From: an uncultured virus (IMG/VR IMGVR_UViG_3300044621_002455)
Taxonomy: Duplodnaviria > Heunggongvirae > Uroviricota > Caudoviricetes
Virus record (IMG/VR): IMGVR_UViG_3300044621_002455
Reading direction: 5' to 3' (one strand)
DNA length: 64,000 nucleotides
The notes under the pieces were generated by a model. That model had not been told where the DNA came from. It was given only the letters and a program-made list of their open reading frames with translations, and searched no databases. Shown in pieces: positions 1,330 through 64,000 of this stretch. Numbering within the stretch: position 1 is the stretch's first letter; every line of letters begins with the position of its first letter. Made by a program: the position numbers and the translations under genes.

Positions 1330-1676
1330 GGCTTTGAAATGCAGATGGACGCTTCGCCCTGGGAAGGGGAAGCAATGCGAGAGAAGCTGCCGTAGGACAG
1401 GTCCAGAATGCGGCCTCCGTAGTATGGACCTCTGTCCGTGATTGTCACCGTCACTGACTTTCCATTGTTACGATTCTTCACACGCAATTGCGTGCCGAAT
1501 GGAAGCCATGGGTGGGCAGCAGTAAGAGCGTGGGCATCAAAGCGAGAGCCATTTGCTGCTCGTTGACCGTGATAGCCATCGCCAATGCCATAGTGCGAGG
1601 CAATGCCACATTGGAGCGTTGCTGCTTGCGCCTGGAAGGGGCAGAGCAGCAGGAGAGAGAAAAGGAAACGTTTCAT
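1326..1676 (-). CDS. rlpA: RlpA-like (DPBB) lytic transglycosylase with signal peptide
   Basis: Signal peptide MKRFLFSLLLL; ASHYG..YHGQRAANGSRFD...TAAHPWLPFGT...V.ITDRGPY..GRILDLS are classic RlpA motifs; start reassigned to ATG 1676. Confidence 0.85.
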   Translation of the reverse strand: MKRFLFSLLLLCPFQAQAATLQCGIASHYGIGDGYHGQRAANGSRFDAHALTAAHPWLPFGTQLRVKNRNNGKSVTVTITDRGPYYGGRILDLSYGSFSRIASPSQGEASICISKP

Positions 1677-2045
1677 CAAGAAGAACAAAAGAACTAGCGA
1701 GGGCCATGCCGTCTCCGACAAGGCAATGCCCATTGTGCCATGAAACTGCTCGTTGCTGCCGAACGGACTCAGCGTGTTATGATTTCTAGGCATTCGGTCC
1801 TAGCGGCTTAATTGCTGCTCTCGTCTTTGGGCGAGCCGTGAGGGTGGACGCCTCTGATGATGCGGGCAAAGCCGTATGGCTTAGCCAAGGAGTTTTTGCA
1901 TGGTCTCCTGCGAGGCGCGTCATCTCCCTACGCAACTGATGGGAAACTGGGGTATCGGAGGATGTAAAGAAGAAGGGCCTAACGGCCCTTTTTCTTTTGC
2001 CTATACAAAGCCAGCTAGACTCGCGCAATACAAGACCAGCCGATC

Positions 2046-2213
2046 ATGAAGCTTTCTGCAGAGCAGGAAAGGGAAAGGCTTAAGCGATGGATGGCGAGCG
2101 GGGAGGTTTATGACCCTCGTAATGAACCAGATTACGATACGTTTGAATATGCCACTGAACCATTGCCTGGTGATACTACGTGGGCAAAGAAAAAGCCCCT
2201 TGAGGGGCTTTAG
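2046..2213 (+). CDS. hypothetical protein (55 aa, below the ORF-track cut-off)
   Basis: MKLSAEQERERLKRWMASGEVYDPRNEPDYDTFEY...; TAGACT -10 at 2016-2021; ends in the hairpin AAAAAGCCCCT-TG-AGGGGCTTT. Confidence 0.55.
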   Translation: MKLSAEQERERLKRWMASGEVYDPRNEPDYDTFEYATEPLPGDTTWAKKKPLEGL

Positions 2214-2279
2214 CAGGATTCTTGATAAATGGCGTTTATTGGAAATCCTGATAATTAGCAAAACTCTCAGTGGGCTTGA

Positions 2280-2510
2280 CTAGTGCTGGATCGGTGTAAA
2301 TGACAGTTCAAACCACTCACCATCGCTGTTGCAATAAAAGAGATGAGGCGGTTCTGATTCTTGCCATACAAGCTGATTGCGGCAATCCTTGTCAAATTCC
2401 CAAGGCGGATTGATGTTTCGTCGAAGCCTGTAAATGCCTCCATTGGGTAAAGCTGGGTGGTTCAGGCGGATGCCCTCGGCGCCGTCAAAGCCTGCTTCTT
2501 GTGGGTTCAT
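2280..2510 (-). CDS. hypothetical protein (putative cassette gene)
   Basis: 76-aa ORF bounded by core sites. Confidence 0.65.
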   Translation of the reverse strand: MNPQEAGFDGAEGIRLNHPALPNGGIYRLRRNINPPWEFDKDCRNQLVWQESEPPHLFYCNSDGEWFELSFTPIQH

Positions 2511-2525
2511 TAGTTGATCGGACTA

Positions 2526-2720
2526 CTAAGGCAAAGAGATGCGTTCAACACGGCGCACTTCCAGTAAGTGCGGACCATCTTCGGAATAGACGGCTAAGTA
2601 ATGCTGCCCTTCATCCCAGGCTTGCTCCAGGGTTGGAGCTGTACCGCCTGCCTGCTCTTCGCCGTTATCGTCAAGCACCGAGAACTCGTAACTGGTGTCA
2701 AACACTGTGCAGTCAGTCAT
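2526..2720 (-). CDS. hypothetical acidic protein (putative cassette gene)
   Basis: 64-aa ORF bounded by core sites. Confidence 0.7.
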   Translation of the reverse strand: MTDCTVFDTSYEFSVLDDNGEEQAGGTAPTLEQAWDEGQHYLAVYSEDGPHLLEVRRVERISLP

Positions 2721-2741
2721 AAAGAATAGAAGTGATGTTGA

Positions 2742-3101
2742 CTAATCGGGCAGGGATTCAAGAGCTTGCTTAATGGTTTCAAGGTCTTGGTGAAACTCTC
2801 TAGTGTCATCAGCGCCTGTGGCTATGGCATAGAGGGCACCTAGCGCCTGCTCCTTCAAGCTCGGCGGCTTGGGGCGGCGGGCGGCGCGGAGTTTGGTTCC
2901 ATGCCCCCAGCCAGTGCCAAGTTCACAGTTCAGCAACTCACAGCACGCCTCCAGCTCCTGATCAGCGCCCCAGCGGGCGGATTGGGTGGCAAGAGCAAGC
3001 TCAACATCGCTTACTTCACCAGTAACGGTGGCACCGAAGTAGGTGCCAAGCCACTGCTGTACAAGCTCAGGCGGCGGAGTGATTGGGTGTCGTTGAGTCA
3101 T
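2742..3101 (-). CDS. hypothetical cyanophage protein (HPITPPPELVQQW family; putative cassette gene)
   Basis: 119 aa with PITPPPELVQQW, WGADQELEACC and RRPKPPSLKEQAL blocks, which I recall from small cyanophage ORFs. Confidence 0.75.
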   Translation of the reverse strand: MTQRHPITPPPELVQQWLGTYFGATVTGEVSDVELALATQSARWGADQELEACCELLNCELGTGWGHGTKLRAARRPKPPSLKEQALGALYAIATGADDTREFHQDLETIKQALESLPD

Positions 3102-3126
3102 TGGTGAACCTCGTAGTGTGTAGAAC

Positions 3127-4043
3127 TTAGGTGGATTTAAAACTGTCTTTAAACTCTTGCCATCCTTCTTCTAGTTGTTTGTCTGCCCATCCCCAGACAC
3201 CGTGTTCCATGCCATCAATGTTGGCTGCATCAATCTCTTGTTTAATGAGGTGACGCAAATGATCAAGTTGTTCTTCAGTCATGGTTGGTCTCCATTTTTT
3301 TAATACGTTTGTGCATTTGCCATAACAAGATCATCAATGATTCTGTATCAAGTTGAGAAGCGTGACTCCCTTGCCAGTACGCAAACTGCTCAACAAATCT
3401 GTAGTAGTCATCTGGAAGATCAGATTCATCTGTAATGCGAGCCAAAAGAAAAGACATGGAGAGTGTCCATTGGTTAAATGGAAGTGATGAGACGATAGCG
3501 CTTAAGGATTTCCTCTTGCTCTTTTTCTCGCCAGTACTGAAGCCTGCGCTCAAGCTTTGCCGTGGCAAGTTGCATTACGCTTCGCTTGTCGTGGTCCCAA
3601 TCAAGCTCAGAATGATTGGCCAAAGAGCTGCTCGTAGGCATGAGAGAGAGCGCGAAATTTCCTAAGATGATGATCCCTATCTTTCGCCAACAATTCCGCG
3701 AGATCTTTAACGAGCTGGTCGCCATTGTCATTGTCAAAGTATTCAAAAATAGCGTCCGTAAGTGTGTCTTTGGGCGTGCTCACAGTTGACCTCCTTTGAT
3801 GGCGTTGTTGTAGTTCATCAGATATTCTTCAAAATCAGCGCCAGTGGGAGCTTCTTTACAAAGCTCTTCATGATTCTCCTTGAGCATTTCCAAGCTCACG
3901 ACAAAAGCACAACGAATGCGATCCAGGGCAAGCTGTTGCACGAGATTGGGCTCTTCATCAATAGCCTTTTCAATGGTGCAAATGTATTCCTGCAGATCTT
4001 CCATGGAAAAACTGCGAGTGATCATGGGGCTACCAAAGCTCAT
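3127..4043 (-). CDS. cluster of four small hypothetical genes (about 3127-3282, 3275-3457, 3474-3746, 3780-4043)
   Basis: Closely spaced or overlapping minus-strand ORFs with acidic, protein-like composition; starts uncertain. Confidence 0.5.
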
Positions 4044-4203
4044 GGCCAGATCACCATCCTTGAAGGCAGAAATGGGATGGTTTGGCAGCAGGCGATTAAA
4101 TGTGGTGGTCACGATGGAAAGACGGAGGACTAGCGACGTTCGCCGTCGCATGAGCAAAGTATGCCAGCAAAAGGCCCCCATCAAGGGGGCTGTTAATAAA
4201 TCG

Positions 4204-4626
4204 TTACAAAGGCCTGATTGGCTGTCGCAATGCCTGCGTGGCAATACTGAGATTCTTCTGGCACGGCAAAGGTTGTTCCCTCCATTTCGTGGCAATGGCA
4301 TGGCAAGCGCCCATAGGCTCCAGCTCAGCATGCCTGAAGGCGCGGTCCAGGAGGATTTGATAAGCCTGGCGCTTTGGCTTGCTCAGAGGCTCTTCTGGCT
4401 CCTCGATGTTGGTGCGAGCAAAGTCGGCCAGTTCCGTAATATCATCCAGCTCGTTCGTGGCAATAACGAAATGCCTGCCCTTGGCTTGAGCCTTACGCCA
4501 TGCTGGATGAATGGGAGGCTCTTCCATTGCTAACGCCTTCACGTCTTCTTGAAGTTGAGGCGGAATGCAAATGTGTACCATCCGATGCAGTGAATGCTCT
4601 TCAACAAAAGAGAGCTGGATGTCCAT
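4204..4626 (-). CDS. hypothetical protein
   Basis: 140-aa ORF. Confidence 0.65.
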   Translation of the reverse strand: MDIQLSFVEEHSLHRMVHICIPPQLQEDVKALAMEEPPIHPAWRKAQAKGRHFVIATNELDDITELADFARTNIEEPEEPLSKPKRQAYQILLDRAFRHAELEPMGACHAIATKWREQPLPCQKNLSIATQALRQPIRPL

Positions 4627-4628
4627 GG

Positions 4629-4969
4629 TTAGGCGAAACGAAACTGTCCGAAATTAAAGGAGCGTGAACCAATGGTGATTTTGCTTTCACCAAAGCCGTC
4701 ATACATTGTGCCAAGGAGAAAGCTATTCCTCCATTGGAAACAAAATTGTCCTAGGCGGAGATGGCCAGTGGCATCAGTACAATGGAAAGAGAGAGTCATA
4801 GTTGAGGATCCTCAGGAAGCGGGGGAATTTCTTCGATGAGGGCAATCTTCACATCAGGGCGCATTGCAAGAATGAAATGCTCTGCTTGCTTTGCTGAAAT
4901 TGCCCCAAGGGCAATTTTCTTCCCGTCTGACATTGTTATGCAAAAGGTACGGCAAGTAGCAGCCATTAC
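4629..4969 (-). CDS. two small hypothetical genes (4629-4799, 4796-4969)
   Basis: 56- and 57-aa ORFs coupled by overlapping stop/start codons, read by hand. Confidence 0.5.
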
Positions 4970-5391
4970 CAACTTTCCTCCTCAAGCTCTTCAAGGATGT
5001 GTTGACTGAGCGTTTTTTCAAGCATGGGCTTCCATCCGCCGTCGCCTCCAATGCTATTGATTTCTGAAAGGAGATGGAGGGCATCAGCAACGCGAGTGGC
5101 GTCCATCAGACAGCTACAGGCCATACTTGGCTCCTCGCCAATCAGCTCCTCGAACATGCCAATGTGCAGCTCAAACCATTTACCAAGACAGAACAGGGCA
5201 ATCTGCCTGTAGGTTTCGTCGCCATGCTTCTGGAGCATGGATTCAATGGTGGCGGCCAGCTTGGGAGGAATACCTACTGTGCCATGGTCCTGCAGGCCAG
5301 GGGAGATTGAAGAGGCAATAGCTTGGCGCTTGCCGTCTTTGGCGGCTACGGCCTGGCGCAGGAATTGATCAACGGAATCAAACTGGTCCAA
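4966..5391 (-). CDS. hypothetical protein
   Basis: 141-aa ORF. Confidence 0.65.
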   Translation of the reverse strand: MDQFDSVDQFLRQAVAAKDGKRQAIASSISPGLQDHGTVGIPPKLAATIESMLQKHGDETYRQIALFCLGKWFELHIGMFEELIGEEPSMACSCLMDATRVADALHLLSEINSIGGDGGWKPMLEKTLSQHILEELEEESW

Positions 5392-5437
5392 TGCAAGGGA
5401 AGCATTTCGCTAATAATGGCCCCTTGTGGGGCCATTG

Positions 5438-6193
5438 TCAATAATCATCTTCATTAATTGTTTGTAAAGGCATGGTTTCAGGAATGGGCTCACTTTCTGG
5501 CTCAGCATCAAAGCTGATGGTCTCAGCAGACGCAAGGAGAGAATTGCCACGTCGTTCTTCCGTTGCCTTGGCTTCCTTTTCTTTTTCAATGGTCGAAGAC
5601 AAGTCTTTTAGGAAGGTTCGGTAGGAAGTGTCTTGGTTTTCTACGGGCTTGATTTCGTTAAGGCCCAAGAGCTTTGCTTGCTCAACCAGGGAGTTTTTGG
5701 CCACGTTAAGGAACGAAGCATCACCAGCACTTTCTTCTATCTTTACCATTTCCTTTCCGCCATCGTCACCACCGTCCATGATGGTTACTGTCTTCTTGCG
5801 CTTGCTGGTTTCAAAGCTTGCTAATGCAAGATCTTTAAGGTCCATTTGCTCTTTCAACAAACGAGCCCTATGCGTGTCTTGATTCTTGAGAATTTCCTGC
5901 GTATAAAGATCTCTGTTGAAATGCCTATCTCCATTAACTGTTTCCTTACTTAGTTTTAGTACATTCGCAATCTGACGATTGCTCATCTTCGCTGCCAATA
6001 ATTCTTGCACCATCCACCGCCTTACGCCAAGCATTTCTTTGGTATAAATGCCAGCACCATGCGTGCCGCCCTTTGATTTATGTTCGCGGATGGCTTCGTA
6101 TTGCGTAATTGGCACGCCTGCTTTTGTTAAAGCTTTCCTTGCATAAGCCTCTTCTTCTTCAGGCGTGGCGAATTCAATTTCTGGACGAGGCAT
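5438..6193 (-). CDS. HTH protein, probable terminase small subunit
   Basis: HTH LAAKMSNRQIANVLKLSKETVNGD, then a helical region and GDASFL...EQAKLLGL, a pattern seen in TerS-like proteins. Confidence 0.5.
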   Translation of the reverse strand: MPRPEIEFATPEEEEAYARKALTKAGVPITQYEAIREHKSKGGTHGAGIYTKEMLGVRRWMVQELLAAKMSNRQIANVLKLSKETVNGDRHFNRDLYTQEILKNQDTHRARLLKEQMDLKDLALASFETSKRKKTVTIMDGGDDGGKEMVKIEESAGDASFLNVAKNSLVEQAKLLGLNEIKPVENQDTSYRTFLKDLSSTIEKEKEAKATEERRGNSLLASAETISFDAEPESEPIPETMPLQTINEDDY

Positions 6194-6199
6194 TGTTTA

Positions 6200-6857
6200 T
6201 TATTTTGCTCCTCGCATTGTATCCCCTTTTCCATGGAGAGTACGAACAAACAATTCAGTGAAACGTTCCATGCGAGAAGCCACGACAGTGGCGGGACCAT
6301 CATCTATAGCTTTCTTGAGCATGCAAAGCTCTTCCCACTCAGAGTCAGACAATGGCACGATGATTTCCATAGTTAAGCAAAGGGGCGCATAAAGCGCCCC
6401 GTTTCTCCACAATCAATGATACTGCCAGAAGGCTTTTTCTAGCAAATCATCAAAATCGTTTAGCTTTTTAGGGCAATACTTTCGGACAAATTCTTCCATT
6501 TCTTTATGGAAGCTATCGACAATTTCTGCATAGGCAGCATCTAGTCCACGAGCGTCCATTTCATGCTCAGCTTCGCGCTCATAAGCGAGAGCCATGCAAT
6601 CTTTTGGATTGGTGCAAAATTCACGCATTAGCCTGCTCCTGAGTGGCGAAGCCATTATCAATTAATTGCTTGATTTCATGCAAGCTAGAGCGCCAATGGC
6701 GCTCGCCATTCTCATCCCTTGCTCCATAAAGAGTTCGGGCCGCTGGTTGCGGCCCTTTGCTTGGCTTTGAAAAACCATGATGGACAATAGGCAAAATTTC
6801 TGCCCCATTGTGCTCTAGGAGGGGAAGCTTGTCTACTGGTTGAGGCGGAAGAAGCAT
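6200..6857 (-). CDS. three small hypothetical genes (about 6200-6370, 6413-6600, 6621-6857)
   Basis: Consecutive minus-strand ORFs; TAACAT -10-like element near 6880. Confidence 0.55.
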
Positions 6858-6885
6858 TGCGCTGGTAGATTCCTTTGCAATGTTA

Positions 6886-7154
6886 AGAGCGTTTTAGACG
6901 ATTGAAGGTTGTTTATGCCTTTTGTCTAGAACGTTCCGCCTTTGGGGCTCCACTATGTCTTGAACGGCATTGCGGAGGTTTGAGGCATCGTCAGGCTTTT
7001 GATCGTTTTGTTAGGTGATCTTGGCCTGATGATTGAACGCTCCGCCCTGGGGGGCTACGCTTGCCCTCGCTGGCCAGGCAGCTTAGGCTTGGTAGCTCCC
7101 TCATGCCCCGCTGAGCATGTCTGGATGCACGCGGGACATTCCGGAACCAGTTTA
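6886..7154 (+). other. non-coding structured element with G-T wobble hairpins and a 27-nt motif shared with 61606-61632
   Basis: 15-bp stem GAGCGTTTTAGACGA/TTGTCTAGAACGTTC and a second long stem at about 6972-7046, both needing G-T pairs on the plus strand. Confidence 0.55.
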
Positions 7155-9910: not shown

Positions 9911-10351
9911 GCTTGCTTGTGAAGAGTTTCTTCTGGAATTTCCCGACACGGAAGTGAAGCTTCTCTGGGAAGAAGGCGTTCTCACTGAGAACTACGATCC
10001 CGAATGCCTAGAAGAGCCCACTGATGTGAGGGCGATTAATGACTGGCCGCTCCCTGGCGACAGCTTGATCGTCAAGAGTGAGGTGCCTTCCAAAATGTTT
10101 GTCATTATGTATGGCGAATATCAGCCCGCCTTTGGCTACGAAACCGTTGCCTCCATTGATTGATGGACTTCCCCAATCTCACCACCTCTGAGCTTTCTGC
10201 TCGCATGAAGCAAATGGACCATGACGTGGTTCATTGTCTTGATTGCTTTCTTTCTGATACTGGCGTGGCCGTAACTGGACTGAGCCTTTCGTTTGATGAA
10301 GAAACTGAAGAGTATCTTCTTGATTGGCACTTCGCTTTTCTTGAAGAATGA
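9891..10351 (+). CDS. two acidic hypothetical proteins (9891-10163, 10163-10351)
   Basis: Coupled ORFs within the operon. Confidence 0.6.
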
Positions 10352-11289
10352 ACCACACTATCCTCACCTACTCCCCCTCCGACTTTTCCAGCATGGAAGA
10401 CTCCGCAAAACAAGCAATGATGGACCGTTACAACGGCGTCTTCACTCCCTTGGAGATCAGCGCCGAAGCTTTCAAAACGGCTTACGACACCCCTGACATT
10501 GGCCCCCACATTGAAAAGGACTACAAAGGCCTCTCCTATCTGTCGTGGCCTTTTGCCTTCCGCTATCTGAAGGAGCATTTCCCGACGTTGTTTGTAGCGT
10601 TTGAAGAGAAGACCATTGGCTGGCCTGTATTTGGTGAGCCTGGTGCCTTCATCCTTCGCCCCTATCTCACTGATGGGATCAAGCGCACGCCTGCGCTGGT
10701 ATTTCCAATCATGGACCGTAAGCACAATTCCATTCAACAGCTTGATGGTCGTGCCATTTCCGACAACATCCAACGTGCCAGCGTCAAGGCAATTGCTACG
10801 TTCACGGGCCTTGGTCTTCGGCTCTATGCCGGAGAGGACATCCCCAAGGAAGAGGCAAAGCCGGCGCTGCAGCAGGACACGCCCAAGGCGCCTGCACGCA
10901 CTAAGGCTGCCCCTAAAGCAAGCGCTCCTGCTGCTGGAAGCGAAGGGACTGCTCCCGCCGCTGATACAGGGGCCTCTGAGCCCTTCGATGCGAAGGCAGC
11001 TCTCATGGCAGTGTGCAAAGCCAATCCCCTCGGCTATCTAGACGAGAAGGCTTCCATGGCAGCAGGCAAGGCCTCCTTGGAAAGCATTGGCTTGGCACGC
11101 GCCACGGAAGTGAAGAGCTGGCAAGCCTTCGGAAACGTCGTCGCATCAATGATGACGCTATGGGCCAAGGAGCAAGAAATTGTCATTAGCAAAGCTGAAA
11201 TGACAGAGGAAATCAATCTTGTTCGTGGCCTTGAAGACACCAGTGCCATCATTGAAGGCATGAAGGCTTTCGTGGCAAAAAAGAAATAG
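10348..11289 (+). CDS. Sak3/DUF1071-family single-strand annealing protein
   Basis: LSYLSWPFA, FPIMDRKHNSI and ISDNIQRASVKAIA..GLGLRLYAGEDIP motifs. Confidence 0.8.
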   Translation: MNHTILTYSPSDFSSMEDSAKQAMMDRYNGVFTPLEISAEAFKTAYDTPDIGPHIEKDYKGLSYLSWPFAFRYLKEHFPTLFVAFEEKTIGWPVFGEPGAFILRPYLTDGIKRTPALVFPIMDRKHNSIQQLDGRAISDNIQRASVKAIATFTGLGLRLYAGEDIPKEEAKPALQQDTPKAPARTKAAPKASAPAAGSEGTAPAADTGASEPFDAKAALMAVCKANPLGYLDEKASMAAGKASLESIGLARATEVKSWQAFGNVVASMMTLWAKEQEIVISKAEMTEEINLVRGLEDTSAIIEGMKAFVAKKK

Positions 11290-11991: not shown

Positions 11992-12224
11992 AAACCATTC
12001 TCTTCCTTTTTGCCTTTACATTGCTGCCCAGTTCCGCCTTGGCGCAAGCACAGCCCATACAAAAGACAGGCTATAGCTGTCCTCTTGGTTATTACGTTTC
12101 AGGAAGCTATTGCATGCCAAGTGCAGGCAATCGCAGTAAATGGTCCATTCCCAAGGATGGCCCATCTTGTCCACTAGGCTCTTATGTTTCTGGCAATTAT
12201 TGCACGAAATCTTATGCCCGATAA
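11988..12224 (+). CDS. small secreted Cys-repeat protein
   Basis: Signal peptide MKTILFLFAF..., two repeats SCPLGYYVSGSYC / SCPLGSYVSGNYC. Confidence 0.7.
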   Translation: MKTILFLFAFTLLPSSALAQAQPIQKTGYSCPLGYYVSGSYCMPSAGNRSKWSIPKDGPSCPLGSYVSGNYCTKSYAR

Positions 12225-13024
12225 TGGCCTGCTACGATCTATGCCTCTCCTCCCTTCAAATGCAAGCATTTCCCCGTTACGAACCCAACCGGCTACAAAT
12301 TCAGAAGAAACGTTATTACGTTTGCGGCGATTTTCCCAATGTCCCCGCCGAACTTGTTTTGCCCTCTGTGACAACTATTGCGAGCGCGTGTTCTCCGCCT
12401 GGCAAAATTGCGGCGCTAATGAATTGGCGCAAGAAAGTGGGCAATGAAGAAGCTAATCGTCGCACTCGTAATGCAGTGGACAGGGGCAACTGGCTCCATG
12501 GAGTGCTAGAGGATCTATGGAATGGAGAAGACATTCAATGCCATCTCGATTCCCATGAGAAATACGTGCCTTATTTTGAAAGCATTATGGGCTTTCTTGA
12601 GAGTGTTGATAGTCCATTGCTTGTGGAAAGTGCCATTGCTTGGTATGATCCGGCGCAAGAAATTGGCTATTCAGGCACCTTTGATATGCTTGCCAAAATG
12701 AACAGCGGAGCCTATGCCTTGTTGGATTGGAAGACAAGCTACAAAGAGAAGCCTGATACGCAACTGGCCGACTATCGCATGCAGCTTGGTGCCTACGTGC
12801 AGGCGATTGAGCAGATGTATGACATAGAAGTGAACGAGGCGCATTGTGCCATCGCCATCCATGATCCTGATACTGGCCATTCTCAAGAAGCGCAAATCGT
12901 GAGCCTTTCAGCAGGAGAGCTTGCGATGCAGGCAGGCATCATGGTGCAGAAAGTGCAGCAGTTCTTCTTCGAGCACTACCCAGGCGGACGCCCCTTAACA
13001 ATTTCTATGGACAGGGGCGCTTGA
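12224..13024 (+). CDS. PD-(D/E)XK exonuclease (Cas4/RecB-like), likely partner of the annealing protein
   Basis: LPSVTTI, RGNWLHGVLE, YSGTFD..LLDWKTS, QLGAY. Confidence 0.85.
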   Translation: MACYDLCLSSLQMQAFPRYEPNRLQIQKKRYYVCGDFPNVPAELVLPSVTTIASACSPPGKIAALMNWRKKVGNEEANRRTRNAVDRGNWLHGVLEDLWNGEDIQCHLDSHEKYVPYFESIMGFLESVDSPLLVESAIAWYDPAQEIGYSGTFDMLAKMNSGAYALLDWKTSYKEKPDTQLADYRMQLGAYVQAIEQMYDIEVNEAHCAIAIHDPDTGHSQEAQIVSLSAGELAMQAGIMVQKVQQFFFEHYPGGRPLTISMDRGA

Positions 13025-15986: not shown

Positions 15987-16333
15987 TGACTGACGCTGTG
16001 AATCATCCCCGTCATTATGCCAAAAATGGCGGCATTGAATGTATTGAGGCCATTGAAGCTTCAATGGACAAAGATGATTTTCGTGGTTTCCTAAAAGGGA
16101 ACATTCTGAAATATGTTTGGCGCTACGAAGAAAAAAATGGCCTAGAAGATTTGAAGAAAGCTAGTTGGTATCTTGATCTTCTCATTTTCAATATAGAAAA
16201 CGAGCCACAACAAGAAGCTGTGGAAGCTCTTGAGAATGCCTCTCAAGAATGCGAAGGAGGATTCTGTCCGATGCCCGGCATTCGCTATGACCTCCCTGGA
16301 AAGCAAATCACTTTCGCTCCAGTAGAAAACTAA
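15986..16333 (+). CDS. DUF3310 (SaV-like) protein
   Basis: VNHPRHY..GGIECIEAI...GFLKGNILKYVWRY..KNGLEDLKKA.WYL. Confidence 0.85.
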   Translation: MTDAVNHPRHYAKNGGIECIEAIEASMDKDDFRGFLKGNILKYVWRYEEKNGLEDLKKASWYLDLLIFNIENEPQQEAVEALENASQECEGGFCPMPGIRYDLPGKQITFAPVEN

Positions 16334-16812
16334 GCAACATTACAACAGAGCCCCCATGAGGGGGCTTTTTCATGCTCAATTTTTTGGTGCATGGGCAGAA
16401 CAATCCCTTTCTTCTCGCACCATTCCTCAAGATGCTTTTGGTCAGTGTGAGCACTGACAAAGCTATTGCAATACACCCAAGCCATCAGAATCTCCTCTCG
16501 CTTTTCCGTCCAGAATTGCTGAGGACGCCACCATTCAAAAAGATTTTCGTTTCCCTTGGACAGATTACAGGTTCGACAAGAGGGCACAAGATTAAACTTA
16601 CTGAAGTGCGGGCCGCCTTTACTCTTCGGAACAATATGGTCAATCGTAAGCTTTTCTCCCCATTCTCCGCAATAAGCACAAGCGCATTGGCCAAATGGCC
16701 CCCTCAAAAAATAATCTTCAAAAATGCTCTTACGGAATCTACGTTTTGCATCACCAGGGCGAAGTTCAATGAGAGAATAAAGCAGCTCATCAGGACCATT
16801 CGCTCTAAGCAT
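16330..16812 (-). CDS. HNH endonuclease
   Basis: CAYCG...TIDHIVPKSKGG...NLVPSCRTCNLSKG. Confidence 0.85.
   Translation of the reverse strand: MLRANGPDELLYSLIELRPGDAKRRFRKSIFEDYFLRGPFGQCACAYCGEWGEKLTIDHIVPKSKGGPHFSKFNLVPSCRTCNLSKGNENLFEWWRPQQFWTEKREEILMAWVYCNSFVSAHTDQKHLEEWCEKKGIVLPMHQKIEHEKAPSWGLCCNVA
16349..16370 (+). terminator. intrinsic terminator ending the replication operon
   Basis: AGCCCCC-ATGA-GGGGGCT followed by a T run. Confidence 0.65.
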
Positions 16813-22143: not shown

Positions 22144-22998
22144 TCAAAGCACTGGCATCTCGTATTCTTGCGTACTATTGCAATAGTGCTTGAAAATCAC
22201 TTCGCTTGTATTGCCCGCCCAGTTGGCCACTTGTGGCACGGGAATGCCAGCCTCGATCCAGCGGCTGATAGCAGTGTGGCGACAATCATATGGCCTGTAA
22301 ACGTGAGAAATTAACCCTGCTTCATGCAAAGGCGAAAGCTTTTTCCTGAAATAGCTTTGAAAGGCAAGCCGATTCCATGGAAAAATAAAATCGTTTTCGC
22401 GAGGAAGTTCGGCAAGAATCTCTTGGCAACGAGCATTAATAGGCACCCAGCGGCGCTTGTTGGTTTTCGTGCTATTCTTTAGGCCATGCGTAAGCGTATA
22501 GTTTTGATGCACTAAAAGCTTGTTTTCCTTGATATCGTCCCATTTCGCCGCCCTCACTTCGCCAGTGCGCATTGCAGTTTGCAACATAAATTCCGTATAC
22601 CAAGACCAATTAACATCGCGATAAGTGAGCTTCGCTTCTAATGCGGCAAGGACCAAGCCAGTTTCATTTCGAGGGATGACAACGATTTCCTCTTCGCGTT
22701 GAGGTGCCTTTGGCATTTTGAAGCTTGCCAATGGATTGCGAGCAACGATTGCCACGTCTTCTTGCGCTGCCCATTTGTACATAGTCTTGATGTACATAGC
22801 AACGCGCCTTGACGTGAGCACTGGTTTTTCTCCCAATGCCCAGATCATTACTTTCCTGGCTTCGTCAATGTCTTGAATAGGACAGCGCTCCAGCCATTTG
22901 CTAACTTGCTTATAGTCTGAAGTGAGACTAGTTGGACATAAAGAAATGGAGCGCTCTTCGACGAAGGCGCTCCAGAGGCTTGAGACAGTGGTGGTCAT
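22144..22998 (-). CDS. tyrosine recombinase (core-binding plus catalytic domain, no arm-binding domain)
   Basis: Catalytic R in TAMRTGE, K in STKTNK, RPYDCRHT, WAGNT and the Tyr nucleophile in FKHY. Confidence 0.9.
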   Translation of the reverse strand: MTTTVSSLWSAFVEERSISLCPTSLTSDYKQVSKWLERCPIQDIDEARKVMIWALGEKPVLTSRRVAMYIKTMYKWAAQEDVAIVARNPLASFKMPKAPQREEEIVVIPRNETGLVLAALEAKLTYRDVNWSWYTEFMLQTAMRTGEVRAAKWDDIKENKLLVHQNYTLTHGLKNSTKTNKRRWVPINARCQEILAELPRENDFIFPWNRLAFQSYFRKKLSPLHEAGLISHVYRPYDCRHTAISRWIEAGIPVPQVANWAGNTSEVIFKHYCNSTQEYEMPVL

Positions 22999-61984: not shown

Positions 61985-62478
61985 TGGAAGCTAGCTCAAA
62001 GCGTTGTTCGGTTTGCAAGGAGATCAAAAACCTCTCGTTGTTTGGTGTTCGCAAAAAAGCTAAAGATGGTCGCAATTATCGCTGTAAAGTTTGCCAGTCA
62101 AAATCGAGCAGAGACAGTCGGTCCAAAAATCCAGTGGCAACACAAATTGGGACTATGGTCAAAAAAGCTAAAGAGCGCTCTATCTTGAAAAAATTGCCCT
62201 TTGACATTGATTCCGAATACCTCCTTGATCGGGCTCCTTCCCATTGCCCAATTTTCAATATTCCACTGGAATGGTCGTGCTTTCGTTCAGGGAAAAAAGG
62301 CCCGCTCCCCAATAGCCCATCCCTAGACCGCATCGTCCCGGATCTTGGCTACGTCAAAGGAAACGTATGGATTATTAGCCATAGGGCAAATACAATCAAA
62401 AGCAATGCCACTCACGAAGAACTAAAACTAGTGGCAAACGCCGTAGGCAAAGCAATAGTCGATAGCCTAGAATTTTAG
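61984..62478 (+). CDS. HNH-like endonuclease with N-terminal zinc finger
   Basis: KRCSVC...CKVC; CPIF...SPSLDRI.P..GYVKGNV.IIS.RAN.IKS; start reassigned to ATG 61984. Confidence 0.8.
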   Translation: MEASSKRCSVCKEIKNLSLFGVRKKAKDGRNYRCKVCQSKSSRDSRSKNPVATQIGTMVKKAKERSILKKLPFDIDSEYLLDRAPSHCPIFNIPLEWSCFRSGKKGPLPNSPSLDRIVPDLGYVKGNVWIISHRANTIKSNATHEELKLVANAVGKAIVDSLEF

Positions 62479-62550
62479 ACTAGGCATAAATACTTAGGCG
62501 AAAAAAAAGGGGATGAAAAATGGCGCCACTTTTCGGGGAGGTATGCCCAC

Positions 62551-62603
62551 ATGCGCCTTGCCGCATAAGCCGGTTACTGCTCTATGCGCCTACACGCATA
62601 AGC
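62551..62603. repeat. two ATGCG-N6-CGCAT inverted repeats 33 bp apart
   Basis: ATGCGCCTTGCCGCATAAGC at 62551 and ATGCGCCTACACGCATAAGC at 62584. Confidence 0.7.
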
Positions 62604-62734
62604 GCATAACAGTACGGTTGTACCATCAGAAAAACTAATGTTACGAAATGTTACGATTGCGGGAATCTGGCGAAATTTCGACTAGATTTGGGCATGAGAC
62701 GGGCGACCGTCTCGCCGCCCCTCGACAACCTGCC

Positions 62735-62887
62735 ATGACCTCCCCCTCGATCGCCTCCCTGTTCGCCGCTCGCCTTCGCGAGCTCGAGGAGCAGGATCGC
62801 CAGAGCCAGGCGAAAACAGCCAAAACACTAGCTAGCGTCAAGGCTACGATCGCCGAGCTCGAGAGCCTAGAGATCCCTCTAGACTGA
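62735..62887 (+). CDS. small coiled-coil early protein (50 aa)
   Basis: MTSPSIASLFAARLRELEEQDR...; TAGATT -10 at 62683-62688 and terminator at 62893-62919. Confidence 0.65.
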   Translation: MTSPSIASLFAARLRELEEQDRQSQAKTAKTLASVKATIAELESLEIPLD

Positions 62888-62892
62888 TAGCT

Positions 62893-62919
62893 AAAAGCCG
62901 ACCTTAGAGGTCGGCTTTT
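62893..62919. terminator. bidirectional terminator
   Basis: AAAAGCCGACC-TTAGA-GGTCGGCTTTT. Confidence 0.75.
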
Positions 62920-63086
62920 CTATTCTTGCCATTATGACGCTATGCGCATAGGAGATATTCTCTCGATCAGCAGAGAAGCGAGACAGGAGCGAGAGGGGAG
63001 AGCATGAGAAGGCCTCTCAACCTAAGGAGGCTGAGAGGCTAGGGAGAGAGGCCAGGAGAGGCCTCTGAGAAGGAGAAGGAGGGAGG

Positions 63087-63568
63087 TTATGGGAGGGGGA
63101 GGCGAAGCTCCTTGAGGCGCTCCTGATTTGAGCGAGAGCGAAGGAGGAGAAGCCAGAGGCCGGGGAGGCGAAGGGAGAGGAGGGAGAGCCAGCCAGAGCG
63201 GCGAGACCAGGAGGAGAAGCGAGAGAAGAGGGGGAGGCGAGGGGGAGGAGAGAGGAGGAGGAGAAAGGAGCGGCGAGAGAGGGGGAGACAGCGAGGGAGA
63301 GGAGAGGAGGGGAGACAGCGAGGGGAGAGCATGAGAGGGAGCGCTCCTAGTGACGATCAGAGAGGAGCCAGACAGAGGAGGGAGGGAGGGGAGGCTCTCC
63401 CCTGAGGGAGCGCTCTCGAGCGAGAGCAGAGGCTCGAGCCTCAGAGGCGAGGCGCTCGCAGTAGGAGCGCAAGACGGAGGAGAGGAGAGGAGAGAGCTCG
63501 CCAGAGGAGACAGAGCCGAGGAGAGCGCCAGAGGAGGAGCGAACAGAGCGAAGGGGAGCCGAGGTCAT
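63087..63568 (-). CDS. two low-complexity Ser/Leu/Pro/Arg-rich ORFs (63087-63332, 63347-63568)
   Basis: ATG-started ORFs on the CT-rich strand; coding status uncertain. Confidence 0.35.
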
Positions 63569-63633
63569 GAGAAGAGAAGAGAAAGGAGCGGGAGGCCTTG
63601 AGGCCTCCCTAGGAGGAGAAAGGCGAGAGCTTC

Positions 63634-64000
63634 TCAGGAGCGAGAGAAGGCGAAGGAGCCACCATCGGGGAGAGCTTGCCAGGAGCCAGAGCCGAGAGGG
63701 AGAGCGAAGCGAGAGGCGCTCTCAGGCTTCGCTCCTCGCGAGCGCTTGAGGCGAAGGAGCACAGCGAGGCCAGAGAAGCCAGGAGCGGGAGAGGGATCGA
63801 GCATCCTTAAATCATTCGCGTCGCCATTGATGCACTGCAGGAGCGCCTCTCGGCCGTGCTGATCGCGAAGGAGGAGCGAGACAGGGAGAGGCTCCCCCTT
63901 AGGGAGGAGGATTGGCACGGCAACAGAGAAGCCGGCCTCTGCTGCGTCAATTGCTCGAGAGGAGCAGCGCTCCTGATCAGCAGCGAAGGAGGCCGTCACG
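63634..64000 (-). CDS. C-terminal part of a gp88-like phage protein (extends beyond the window)
   Basis: VTASF...AGFSVAVP...K..PLP...INGD..DLR.LDP...LRLKR resembles the C-terminus of gp88-like proteins. Confidence 0.5.
   Translation of the reverse strand, partial: VTASFAADQERCSSRAIDAAEAGFSVAVPILLPKGEPLPVSLLLRDQHGREALLQCINGDANDLRMLDPSPAPGFSGLAVLLRLKRSRGAKPESASRFALPLGSGSWQALPDGGSFAFSRS

What the first reader, a model, noticed from the sequence alone, without database searches (positions are those of the whole stretch)
2268..3128. Remote cassette array: three promoterless genes, each bounded by AGT-N7-ACT sites
On the coding strand the junctions read TAGT-CAAGCCC-ACTG, TAGT-CCGATCA-ACTA, TAGT-CAACATC-ACTT and AAGT-TCTACAC-ACTA. 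In each, the upstream stop codon forms or abuts the left half-site, and at the three upstream sites the next ATG follows within 0-12 nt. ACT at the exact +7 position four times in a row is very unlikely by chance (about 1/64 each). The array is 19 kb from the recombinase, implying action in trans. Other early-gene junctions use plain stop/start overlaps instead.
Basis: seen in the sequence. Interest (0 to 1): 0.78.

Follow-up and report, generated by a model that had tools for sequence, protein, structure and literature searches.

The report
Stop-codon linkers joining swappable phage genes
The four sites are real copies of a short one-directional linker (stop codon TAG, seven bases, then CACT) that joins small genes in lake cyanophages and marks where whole genes are swapped between phages, but nothing supports an integron-like recombinase system.

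Summary
The four sites exist as described, at minus-strand gene junctions D|C, C|B, B|A and A|end. AGT-N7-ACT is not enriched window-wide (10 found, 9.55 expected), but 5 of the 10 lie within 860 bases (P about 1e-4). The underlying motif is longer and asymmetric: TAG-TC-N5-CACT.

In 92 related IMG/VR loci this motif occurs 81 times on the gene strand and 3 times opposite. It has one fixed spacing and is tied to TAG stops. The same 14-base linker variants recur between many different gene pairs, mostly in a conserved order, and in one cluster per genome. Homology between this phage and its relatives breaks at the linkers. One 414-base identical block ends on the last base of a linker.

The integron-like reading fails:
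- there is no symmetry beyond 3 bp;
- there is no hairpin;
- the site does not travel with a gene;
- the integrase family was found in 1 of 4 near-complete relatives that carry arrays.

Best reading: these are standardised stop-to-start linkers in a promoterless accessory-gene array, which serve as short-homology joints for gene exchange. The enzyme and any role in expression are inferred, not shown.

This scan reached the same reading earlier on related genomes. My literature searches found no description. I class it as a new variant of a known kind, the PeSL or boundary-sequence type.

The parts
3127..3282 (-). Gene D (51 aa, unknown function), the first gene before the linker series. Its start ATGACTGA overlaps the TGA stop of upstream ORF E (3275-3282).
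   Evidence: ORF list. There is an 82%-identical homologue next to C in L014 and a 69% homologue downstream of a C homologue in L090. Nucleotide matches to the myoviruses S-SZBM1, S-RIM32 and S-H9-2. No Pfam or PHROG hit.
3115..3129 (-). Linker 'L4' variant TAAGTTCTACACACT, between D and C. It is followed by 13 nt containing GAGG and then the ATG of C.
   Evidence: The core TTCTACACACT or ATCTACACACT recurs after different upstream genes in L031, L038, L085, L010, L020, L044 and L009.
2742..3101 (-). Gene C (119 aa), a member of the very large family phrog_32006; all-helical, function unknown.
   Evidence: PHROG hit at E 6e-28. More than 614 IMG/VR relatives. AlphaFold model with pLDDT 85. No significant PDB fold match and no PDB sequence match.
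2731..2744 (-). Linker 'L1' TAGTCAACATCACT, between C and B. TAG is the stop of C; the ATG of B follows after 10 nt.
   Evidence: The identical 14-mer occurs in 12 different contexts. It is the right-hand end of a 414-nt block identical to L014.
2526..2720 (-). Gene B (64 aa, unknown function).
   Evidence: ORF list. Six IMG/VR loci carry relatives, five of them in contigs that lack A and C neighbours of this type. No family hit and no match in cultured phages.
2512..2525 (-). Linker 'L2' TAGTCCGATCAACT, between B and A. It lies directly after B's own TAG, giving tandem stops; the ATG of A follows after 1 nt.
   Evidence: In 71 of them the TAG closes an open frame of 40 or more codons, and the flanks on both sides are many and different.
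2280..2510 (-). Gene A (76 aa, unknown function).
   Evidence: ORF list. Seven IMG/VR loci carry relatives. Homologues sit in slots L2-L2, L2-L3 and L3-L3, and before C in L084.
2269..2282 (-). Terminal linker, an 'L3' variant TAGTCAAGCCCACT. TAG is the stop of A and no gene follows.
   Evidence: Relatives carry TAGTCAGGCTCACT or TAGTCAGACCCACT at the same place, followed by the same non-coding sequence. Backbone homology with L029 resumes at 2285.
2192..2211 (-). Terminator-like hairpin with a T run that closes the operon after the array.
   Evidence: Consensus scan.
10348..11289 (+). Sak-type single-strand annealing protein, a candidate agent of short-homology recombination. Its link to the linkers is inferred only.
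   Evidence: Pfam SSAP_Sak, E 1.8e-17. The family was found in 2 of 4 near-complete array-bearing relatives.
12140..13024 (+). PD-(D/E)XK nuclease, the likely exonuclease partner of the annealing protein (inferred).
   Evidence: Pfam PDDEXK_1, E 7.6e-7.

Best explanation
The sites are copies of a 14-nt, one-directional junction linker with consensus TAG-T-C-A-n-n-n-Y-C-A-C-T. The linker supplies the stop codon of one small accessory gene. After 1 to about 15 further G-poor bases it leads into the ATG of the next gene. The linkers string together a promoterless array at the far end of an operon, just before its terminator. Across many uncultured lake cyanophages a handful of linker variants recur, mostly in the same 5'-to-3' order, while the genes between them differ. 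I infer that the linkers, together with the conserved first and last codons of the cassette genes, act as islands of short homology. General recombination between co-infecting phages (annealing or template switching, for example by the phage's Sak annealing protein with its PD-(D/E)XK nuclease, or by host functions) then replaces, adds or deletes whole genes without damaging neighbours. I also infer that the linkers persist because they serve expression, as a stop plus an unstructured spacer for restart or Shine-Dalgarno-independent initiation. Shown: the motif, its strand and spacing specificity, its combinatorial flanks, its order, and the breakpoints at linkers. Inferred: the recombination mechanism and the translational role.
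For: The motif is real and directional. In 92 related loci (516,221 nt) TAGTC-N6-ACT occurs 81 times on the gene strand and 3 times on the other. TAG-N7-CACT occurs 99 against 17 times, while spacings N5, N6, N8 and N9 give 5-9 on the gene strand.

The motif is tied to TAG. CACT sits at +10 after 53 of 170 TAG junctions, 2 of 169 TAA junctions, 3 of 381 TGA junctions, and 1 of 348 junctions on the opposite strand. In 74 of 99 instances the TAG closes an open frame of 40 or more codons.

Both flanks vary independently. The TCCGATCAACT core has 14 different contexts, TCAACATCACT 12, TCATTACCACT 12 and TCAGACCCACT 10. I counted 83 distinct cassette instances in 32 families. The L1-L2 slot holds 12 families in 16 instances, and one family occurs in 11 slot types.

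The order is largely conserved: 153 concordant against 19 discordant ordered pairs in 73 arrays, with L1 before L2 30:4 and L2 before L3 22:1.

Breakpoints of homology with relatives fall at window positions 2731, 2527/2525, 2285 and 3127-3130, that is, at the linkers. A 414-nt block (2731-3144) is identical to L014 and ends on the last base of L1. The neighbouring D gene differs, and the sequence after CACT is unrelated.

Linkers are confined to one cluster per genome in the 5 relatives' records scanned.

The stretch from TAG to ATG has 5% G. Of 149 unique linkers, 113 are followed by an ATG-ORF within 30 nt. Linkers are predicted to be slightly less base-paired than surrounding RNA, 0.54 against 0.44, and higher in 11 of 11 arrays.

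The phage encodes a Sak annealing protein and a PD-(D/E)XK nuclease. From search listings and the starts of abstracts only, such proteins are reported to recombine diverged DNA and to generate phage mosaicism (PMC3945230, PMC5499656).
Against: No direct evidence identifies the recombination mechanism. Fourteen identical bases is very short for homologous recombination. The Sak family was found in only 2 of 4 near-complete array-bearing relatives.

Recombination alone does not explain why TAG, TC and CACT stay fixed while the centre varies. The proposed expression role is untested. The difference in predicted pairing is small. Terminal linkers and 36 of 149 instances have no downstream gene. 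The phage as a whole is poor in Shine-Dalgarno sequences (20 of 73 ORFs), so their absence after linkers is not special.

The linker order was chosen after seeing the data. The loci were ascertained through gene C or through linker L2, which biases counts towards those. At some orthologous junctions the linker variant differs although both flanks are 78-90% identical, so the linkers are not strict positional addresses. The left end of the 414-nt block lies 15 nt inside gene D, not at a linker edge. That fits general recombination but could also be chance identity.
Confidence: 0.6

Rival explanations
1. Integron- or shufflon-like site-specific system. AGT-N7-ACT would be a core site with two half-sites and a 7-bp crossover spacer, cut and rejoined by the phage's tyrosine recombinase (22144-22998) acting in trans.
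For: The form is a 3-7-3 inverted repeat with a spacer length typical of tyrosine recombinases (recalled). Discrete spacer 'alleles' and breakpoints exactly at the sites would fit a requirement for spacer identity. A Phage_integrase-family gene is present in the window.
Against: Symmetry does not extend beyond AGT/ACT. Positions 4 and 10 are complementary in 5 of 140 instances, and the outer positions show no more complementarity than independence predicts. The motif is strand-specific (81:3) and specific to TAG stops, which a symmetric DNA site need not be. None of the 8 folded junction strands shows hairpin potential, with z-scores from -0.36 to +1.52. The site is not linked to one gene as an attC is. 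The integrase family was found in 1 of 4 near-complete array-bearing relatives, and the 100%-complete close relative G002 has none. Resolvase was found in 0 of 5. The window's integrase scores 23 bits against the XerD model's cut-off of 329.6, and no integron-integrase model was hit. Linker order is mostly conserved rather than insertion-ordered.
Confidence: 0.04
2. Purely an RNA-level signal. The linker would be a termination-reinitiation or RNA-processing element read on the mRNA, and the mosaic joints at linkers would be a by-product of selection for intact genes, with no role for the linker in recombination.
For: It lies on the coding strand only, has a fixed distance from the stop codon, is TAG-specific, and has a G-poor, weakly structured spacer with an ATG 1-16 nt later in most cases. 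There is no promoter in the array.
Against: Identical 14-mers, including their variable centres, sit between unrelated flanks in dozens of contexts. This needs copying or exchange at the linker itself, not just selection. Terminal linkers have no downstream gene. There is no Rfam match in the array. No complementarity to the 16S rRNA 3' end was seen, but that check relied on a recalled sequence and is not a tool result.
Confidence: 0.15
3. Nuclease-targeted hotspot. A phage- or host-encoded sequence-specific nuclease (for example one of the HNH proteins) would nick or cut the asymmetric linker, and repair from a co-infecting phage would copy the neighbouring cassette, as in homing.
For: The motif is asymmetric, 14 nt long, with conserved ends and a tolerated centre, which resembles homing-endonuclease sites (recalled). 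An HNH-domain protein is found in 5 of 5 array-bearing relatives examined and in the window at 16330-16812. Breakpoints are sharp at the linkers.
Against: HNH domains are common in phages and also matched 10 of 14 control genomes. The HNH genes are not adjacent to the arrays and vary in size from 134 to 372 aa. The tie to TAG stops and the coding strand is not explained. There is no evidence of cleavage.
Confidence: 0.08
4. Inherited relic. The linkers would be leftovers of tandem duplication of one ancestral gene-plus-spacer unit, with no present function in expression or recombination.
For: The array families are paralogous and often tandem: the C family occurs up to 4 times in one locus. 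The centres of some variants drift, for example TCAGACCCACT, TCAAGCCCACT and TCAGGCTCACT.
Against: Letter-perfect 14-mers lie between unrelated genes while the proteins have diverged to 44-60% identity. TAG and CACT are kept while the centres vary. Homology breakpoints are concentrated at the linkers.
Confidence: 0.08

Closest known systems
PeSLs (promoter-early stem-loops) of T4-type phages (Arbiol et al. 2010, PMC2839356; I read the abstract and the section 'PeSL Characteristics and Functions')
   Same: Both are short repeated intergenic elements that begin at the upstream gene's stop codon and end at the next gene's start. Both are concentrated in a hyperplastic region of small non-essential ORFs. 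In both, comparison of related phages shows insertions, deletions and replacements bounded by the elements.
   Different: PeSLs contain a strong sigma-70-like promoter and a stem-loop terminator, and each cassette is its own transcription unit. The linkers here are 14 nt with no promoter and no stem-loop. They are G-poor, built on TAG, and occur as distinct variants in a mostly fixed order. PeSL mini-circles were shown experimentally; nothing comparable is known here.
Short conserved 'boundary' or 'linker' sequences at module junctions of lambdoid phages (modular theory of Susskind and Botstein; Juhala 2000, Clark 2001).
   Same: The idea is the same: short conserved sequences at gene boundaries provide homology for exchanging modules between otherwise unrelated phages.
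   Different: Here the elements share one consensus and one orientation, overlap the stop codon, are clustered in a single array, and recur in hundreds of metagenomic contigs. The lambdoid examples are few and heterogeneous.
Integron gene cassettes with attC sites and IntI (features recalled)
   Same: Both are arrays of promoterless, co-oriented small genes separated by recurring sites that overlap or follow stop codons, with variable gene content between relatives.
   Different: There is no IntI, attI or Pc. The sites are 14 nt with no folded imperfect inverted repeat. A site does not travel with its gene. The order of sites is largely fixed. The phage-integrase family is absent from 3 of 4 near-complete relatives.
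Translational coupling and termination-reinitiation junctions of polycistronic bacterial and phage mRNAs (general knowledge)
   Same: The stop codon lies 12-30 nt before the next ATG, there is often no Shine-Dalgarno sequence, and the spacer is unstructured.
   Different: Ordinary coupling needs no conserved word at a fixed distance from the stop codon. Other junctions in this same phage use ATGA or ATGACTGA overlaps.

Membership tests
Integron | IntI-type tyrosine recombinase encoded next to the array, with attI and a Pc promoter (recalled definition) | tested here: not met
   The only tyrosine recombinase is 19 kb away. It scores 23 bits on the XerD model (cut-off 329.6), and no integron-integrase model was hit at E<=0.001. 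No promoter-like site lies at the head of the linker series. The family was found in 1 of 4 near-complete array-bearing relatives.
Integron | attC: an imperfect inverted repeat of roughly 60-140 bp that folds as a single-stranded hairpin (recalled definition) | tested here: not met
   The junctions are 14-41 nt long. The 61-nt junction stretches, folded as DNA on both strands, give z-scores from -0.36 to +1.52, none better than shuffles.
Integron | Each cassette carries its own attC, so the site is linked to its gene | tested here: not met
   The same linker follows at least 9 different gene ends and precedes at least 7 different gene starts. One gene family occurs in 11 slot types.
Tyrosine-recombinase core site (lox, FRT, dif, att core type) | Two inverted binding arms of about 9-13 bp around a 6-8 bp spacer (recalled definition) | tested here: not met
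   Only AGT/ACT is symmetric. Positions 4/10 are complementary in 5 of 140 instances. The outer positions 0/14, -1/15, -2/16 and -3/17 match what independence predicts.
Shufflon or invertible-segment system | Sites in both orientations that mediate inversions | tested here: not met
   Linkers occur 81 times on the gene strand against 3 on the other, and all array genes are co-oriented.
PeSL cassettes of T4-type phages | Sigma-70-like early promoter within the element (PMC2839356, section read) | tested here: not met
   No promoter-like site in 2268-3128. Three were found in 1700-6600, all outside the array, against 4.7 expected.
PeSL cassettes of T4-type phages | Stable stem-loop acting as terminator or attenuator | tested here: not met
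   No stable fold at any of the 4 junctions. Linkers are predicted to be less paired than their surroundings.
PeSL cassettes of T4-type phages | Repeated intergenic element in a hyperplastic region that bounds insertions, deletions and replacements between related phages | tested here: met
PeSL cassettes of T4-type phages | Recombination between nearby elements yields mini-circles | not testable with these tools
   Only assembled contigs could be laid on the region. No raw reads or PCR were available.
Boundary or linker sequences of phage modules (modular theory) | Short conserved sequence at gene boundaries shared by otherwise unrelated flanking genes, coinciding with mosaic joints | tested here: met

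The most novel reading that the evidence does not exclude
The linkers may be the recognition sites of a dedicated but still unidentified activity: a phage HNH-type nuclease, a host enzyme, or a ribosome- or RNA-linked process. Such an activity would actively catalyse cassette exchange. The array would then be a phage-borne, promoterless gene-capture platform with ordered 'slots', working like an integron but with 14-nt, stop-codon-built sites and no tyrosine recombinase.
Probability: 0.1. Interest if true: 0.85.

Novelty: new variant of a known kind. Interest (0 to 1): 0.55.

Why it matters
Phage genomes are mosaics, yet clear cases where the joints themselves can be seen are rare. Here a defined 14-base word marks the joints in more than a hundred uncultured freshwater cyanophage contigs. 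Single genes are exchanged exactly at it, and the word is built on the stop codon. That gives a concrete, testable substrate for how phages trade small accessory genes, which probably act in host takeover or anti-defence. It also offers a simple sequence tag for finding such accessory-gene arrays in metagenomes. If a dedicated enzyme or a translational function were found, it would be a new kind of gene-capture or gene-expression element.

Tried and rejected
1. Integron or tyrosine-recombinase reading: rejected for the reasons given under rival explanations.

2. Promoter reading: TTGACT on the opposite strand looked like a -35 box, but the consensus scan found no promoter-like site in the array on either strand.

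3. Known RNA families and tRNAs: no Rfam hit in the array. The only hit in 1500-7000, ctRNA_p42d at 1971-2000, scored 27.3 bits against a gathering score of 50 and coincides with a terminator-like hairpin. There are no tRNA genes in the window, so no suppressor tRNA.

4. Read-through fusion idea: C-B and B-A are in frame across the linker. Family-wide, however, linker-to-ATG gaps that keep the frame (1, 4, 7, 10, 13, 16, 25) account for 58 of 113 cases, only a modest excess over one third. I did not pursue this.

5. Function of the cassettes: A, B and D have no Pfam or PHROG hit, and C hits only phrog_32006, of unknown function. The C model (pLDDT 85) has no significant PDB fold match; the best is E 0.96. 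The only BFVD match at E<=0.001 is an unnamed entry, F4YCP6. There is no PDB sequence match.

6. Sequencing runs: all four runs laid were assembled contigs, so no transcript ends, strand or circular joints could be read. The listed joints had short sides (21-34 nt) and lay inside genes, so I do not use them. Contigs in the RNA-library run with loose ends at 2732, 2740 and 3127 are compatible with relatives breaking at linkers but prove nothing about transcription.

7. Conservation profile at orthologous junctions: contaminated by chance motif hits inside coding regions (seen), so the profile was discarded. Only the individual true pairs are used.

8. Bacterial and archaeal genomes: one scan for a fam-0 gene end plus linker found 1 contig, from a MAG labelled Gammaproteobacteria, carrying a 3-linker array. 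It is probably a binned phage contig. No cyanobacterial genome was hit, so there is no host or prophage information.

9. Literature: five motif strings searched anywhere in the text gave 0 papers. For three keyword searches I looked only at the listings and saw no description of such linkers. That is not proof of absence, because subscription journals are not covered.
Full report
WHAT IS THERE

The window is a cyanophage of siphovirus type. It encodes a tape-measure protein, major capsid protein, portal, ThyX, dCTP deaminase, a Sak annealing protein, a PD-(D/E)XK nuclease, an HNH protein and a 284-aa Phage_integrase-family protein at 22144-22998. Its short nucleotide matches are all to Synechococcus phages.

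The finding lies on the minus strand at the far end of a run of co-oriented small genes: E, D (3127-3282), C (2742-3101), B (2526-2720) and A (2280-2510). A terminator-like hairpin follows at 2211-2192. No sigma-70-like promoter lies inside the array.

The distances from ACT to the next ATG are 1, 10 and 13 nt.

IS IT MORE THAN CHANCE?

The bare AGT-N7-ACT is not enriched in the window: 10 found against 9.55 expected. However, five of the ten lie within 860 nt, which random placement reproduces in only 24 of 200,000 trials. One of the five is inside gene A and is irrelevant. The longer word TAGTC-N6-ACT occurs 4 times, all on the minus strand, against 0.78 expected; 0 of 100 shuffles reach 4.

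The real proof comes from relatives. I fetched 92 IMG/VR loci through proteins A, B and C, oriented with the gene strand as plus.
- In their 516,221 nt, TAGTC-N6-ACT has 81 distinct occurrences on the gene strand and 3 on the other.
- TAG-N7-CACT has 99 against 17. Spacings of 5, 6, 8 and 9 give only 5-9 on the gene strand.
- In 74 of the 99, the TAG closes an open frame of 40 or more codons.
- In a crude, motif-blind list of gene junctions, CACT sits at +10 after 53 of 170 TAG stops, after 2 of 169 TAA stops and 3 of 381 TGA stops, and at 1 of 348 junctions on the opposite strand.

The element is therefore TAG-T-C-A-n-n-n-Y-C-A-C-T. It is directional, anchored to the stop codon at a fixed distance, and lies at a variable distance (mostly 1-16 nt) from the next ATG. 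The stretch from TAG to ATG contains only 5% G. The AGT/ACT 'palindrome' is incidental. Positions 4 and 10 are complementary in 5 of 140 instances, and the flanking positions are no more complementary than independence predicts.

THE LINKERS ARE INDEPENDENT UNITS AT MOSAIC JOINTS

A small number of variants recur letter for letter:
- L1: TCAACATCACT
- L2: TCCGATCAACT
- L3: TCAGACCCACT and close variants
- L4: TTCTACACACT
- L5: TCATTACCACT
- L6 to L8

Each variant is found between many different upstream gene ends and downstream gene starts, with 14, 12, 12 and 10 distinct contexts for the four commonest.

In 71 of them the TAG closes a frame of 40 or more codons. In 51 another linker lies on the same strand within 1.5 kb. 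The remainder look like chance hits.

Between classified linkers I counted 83 distinct cassette instances in 32 protein families. The L1-L2 slot alone holds 12 families in 16 instances, and one family (beginning MSELSPAAQAV...) occurs in 11 slot types.

The order of variants along arrays is largely conserved. There are 153 concordant against 19 discordant ordered pairs in 73 distinct arrays: L1 before L2 30:4, L2 before L3 22:1, and L4 before L1 10:0. I chose the overall order after seeing the data, and half the loci were selected for L2. The window has L4-variant > L1 > L2 > L3-variant.

In the five relatives' whole records scanned, four of them at least 97% complete, linkers are confined to one cluster per genome. 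Other matches to the loose pattern are at the level of the reversed-pattern control.

BREAKPOINTS

Homology between the window and its relatives starts or stops at the linkers:
- It ends at 2731 in L014.
- It resumes at 2527 in L003 and L002, which lack B.
- It resumes at 2285 in L029, which lacks A and B.
- It starts at 3127-3130 in L003, L085 and L016.

The clearest case is L014. A block of 414 consecutive identical bases (window 3144-2731) covers the last 15 nt of D, L4, all of C, and L1. It ends on the T of CACT. Upstream, gene D differs at many positions. Downstream, the two phages are unrelated. Gene order also differs elsewhere: A before C in L084, C before D in L090, and a C-family gene replacing another gene in L002 and L004.

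Cultured phages with homologues mostly lack linkers. The S-CBS2 C homologue uses a gATGACTGA stop/start overlap. S-H1 has a degenerate linker, TAGGAAACATCACT. The D-like sequences of the myoviruses S-SZBM1 and S-RIM32 sit among overlapping genes with no linker.

An integron-like or core-site reading requires symmetric arms, a recombinase that travels with the sites, and, for attC, a folding site linked to its gene. None of these holds.
- Symmetry stops at 3 bp.
- The eight folded junction strands are no more stable than shuffles.
- The sites are not linked to genes.
- Orientation is uniform.
- The Phage_integrase family was found in 1 of 5 relatives' records, 1 of the 4 that are at least 90% complete. 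The 100%-complete close relative G002 has none, though it carries linkers and differs from the window exactly at them.
- Resolvase was found in 0 of 5.
- The window's integrase scores far below the XerD cut-off and hits no integron-integrase model.

HOW IT MOST LIKELY WORKS

Shown: these are standardised, directional stop-to-start linkers in a single promoterless accessory-gene array, and gene-sized exchanges between phages end at them.

Inferred: exchange occurs by general recombination on short homology. The homology would comprise the linker plus the conserved first codons (61 of 113 downstream genes start ATGAC[T/C/A]) and the conserved last codons of the cassette families. The phage has a Sak annealing protein and a PD-(D/E)XK nuclease. 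From listings and the starts of abstracts only, such proteins are reported to recombine diverged sequences and to create mosaicism (PMC3945230, PMC5499656). But Sak was found in only 2 of the 4 near-complete relatives, so it cannot be the general agent.

The conserved TAG, TC and CACT, alongside drifting centres, argue for a function beyond homology. I favour a role in expression: a stop plus a G-poor, weakly paired spacer (unpaired probability 0.54 against 0.44, higher in 11 of 11 arrays) for restart at the next ATG. This is weakly supported. The effect is small, terminal linkers have no downstream gene, and the phage is generally poor in Shine-Dalgarno sequences (20 of 73 ORFs; TAG is its rarest stop, 12 of 73).

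A nuclease that targets the asymmetric word is not excluded, since HNH proteins are present in 5 of 5 relatives. That domain is common, however, and also matched 10 of 14 control genomes.

At some orthologous junctions the linker variant differs (L2 against L3) while both flanks remain 78-90% identical. The variants are therefore not strict addresses.

COMPARISON WITH KNOWN SYSTEMS

The closest described system is the PeSL of T4-type phages: repeated intergenic elements in hyperplastic regions that run from a stop codon to the next start and mediate modular shuffling (PMC2839356; abstract and one section read). The present linkers share the placement and the evolutionary footprint but lack the two defining parts, a promoter and a stem-loop. 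They also fit the old idea of boundary or linker sequences in lambdoid phages (recalled). They are not integron attC sites.

My searches found no paper containing the motif strings and none describing such linkers in three keyword listings.

Within this scan the same elements were reported before on other genomes with the same conclusion: e1-6108081, e1-6108093, e1-6108071, e1-5874023 and e1-6138198. I saw those notes after my own searches had established the motif, and I re-tested their claims here.

THE CASSETTES

Their functions remain unknown. C belongs to phrog_32006. It is all-helical (pLDDT 85) with no significant solved-structure match. Its central DNA segment (2842-2972) is enormously multi-copy in lake metagenome assemblies, with summed contig depth about 1093 against about 5-20 for most neighbouring bins in run X3. 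A, B and D have no family hits.

VERDICT

I class this as a new variant of a known kind, of moderate interest.

Noticed in passing
window 62940-63800: A stretch of about 900 nt that is almost purely purine (GA-rich) on the plus strand, with degenerate 10-54-nt repeats. GC is 0.57, GC skew +0.19 and AT skew +0.30 for 62001-64000. Its nature is unknown; it could be a low-complexity gene on the minus strand or a non-coding tract near a genome end.
   Followed up: partly
window 2842-2972 (middle of gene C): Summed contig depth is about 1093 in one lake metagenome run, against about 5-20 for most neighbouring bins, and 427 in an RNA library. The conserved core of the phrog_32006 family is extremely abundant and multi-copy in lake assemblies.
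   Followed up: no
window 3275-3282 and many loci (e.g. L024, L030, L039): There is a second standard junction word, ATGACTGA (often gATGACTGA). The ATG of the next gene and the TGA stop of the previous gene overlap. Of 113 genes that follow a linker, 61 also start ATGAC[T/C/A].
   Followed up: partly
window 2523-2528: Gene B ends with tandem stops TAG TAG: its own stop and then the linker's. This looks like the scar of joining a complete gene to a linker.
   Followed up: no
L214 (S-SZBM1) 1853-2143: The 51-aa gene D matches, at 84% nucleotide identity, only the N-terminal half of a 96-aa gene in a T4-like cyanomyovirus. Modules smaller than a gene are therefore also shared across phage families.
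   Followed up: partly
L081 vs L136; L132 vs L152: At these orthologous junctions both flanks are 76-90% identical, yet the linker variant differs (L2 against L3-type). This suggests that the linker itself is replaced or converted.
   Followed up: partly
L044 3361-3447; L162: Two linkers lie only 86 nt apart, and elsewhere there is a 20-aa remnant ORF ending ...ANELETQ. These look like deletion relics of cassettes between linkers.
   Followed up: no
L213 (contig of a MAG labelled Gammaproteobacteria): A 44.8-kb contig binned as Gammaproteobacteria carries a three-linker array with a C-family gene. It is probably a cyanophage contig mis-binned into the MAG.
   Followed up: partly
window 2046-2213 (+): A convergent 55-aa ORF lies just beyond the array's terminator. 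It is conserved next to the arrays of close relatives, and more distant copies (40-73% identical) occur on the gene strand in many loci. It also matches S-CBS4 at the nucleotide level.
   Followed up: no
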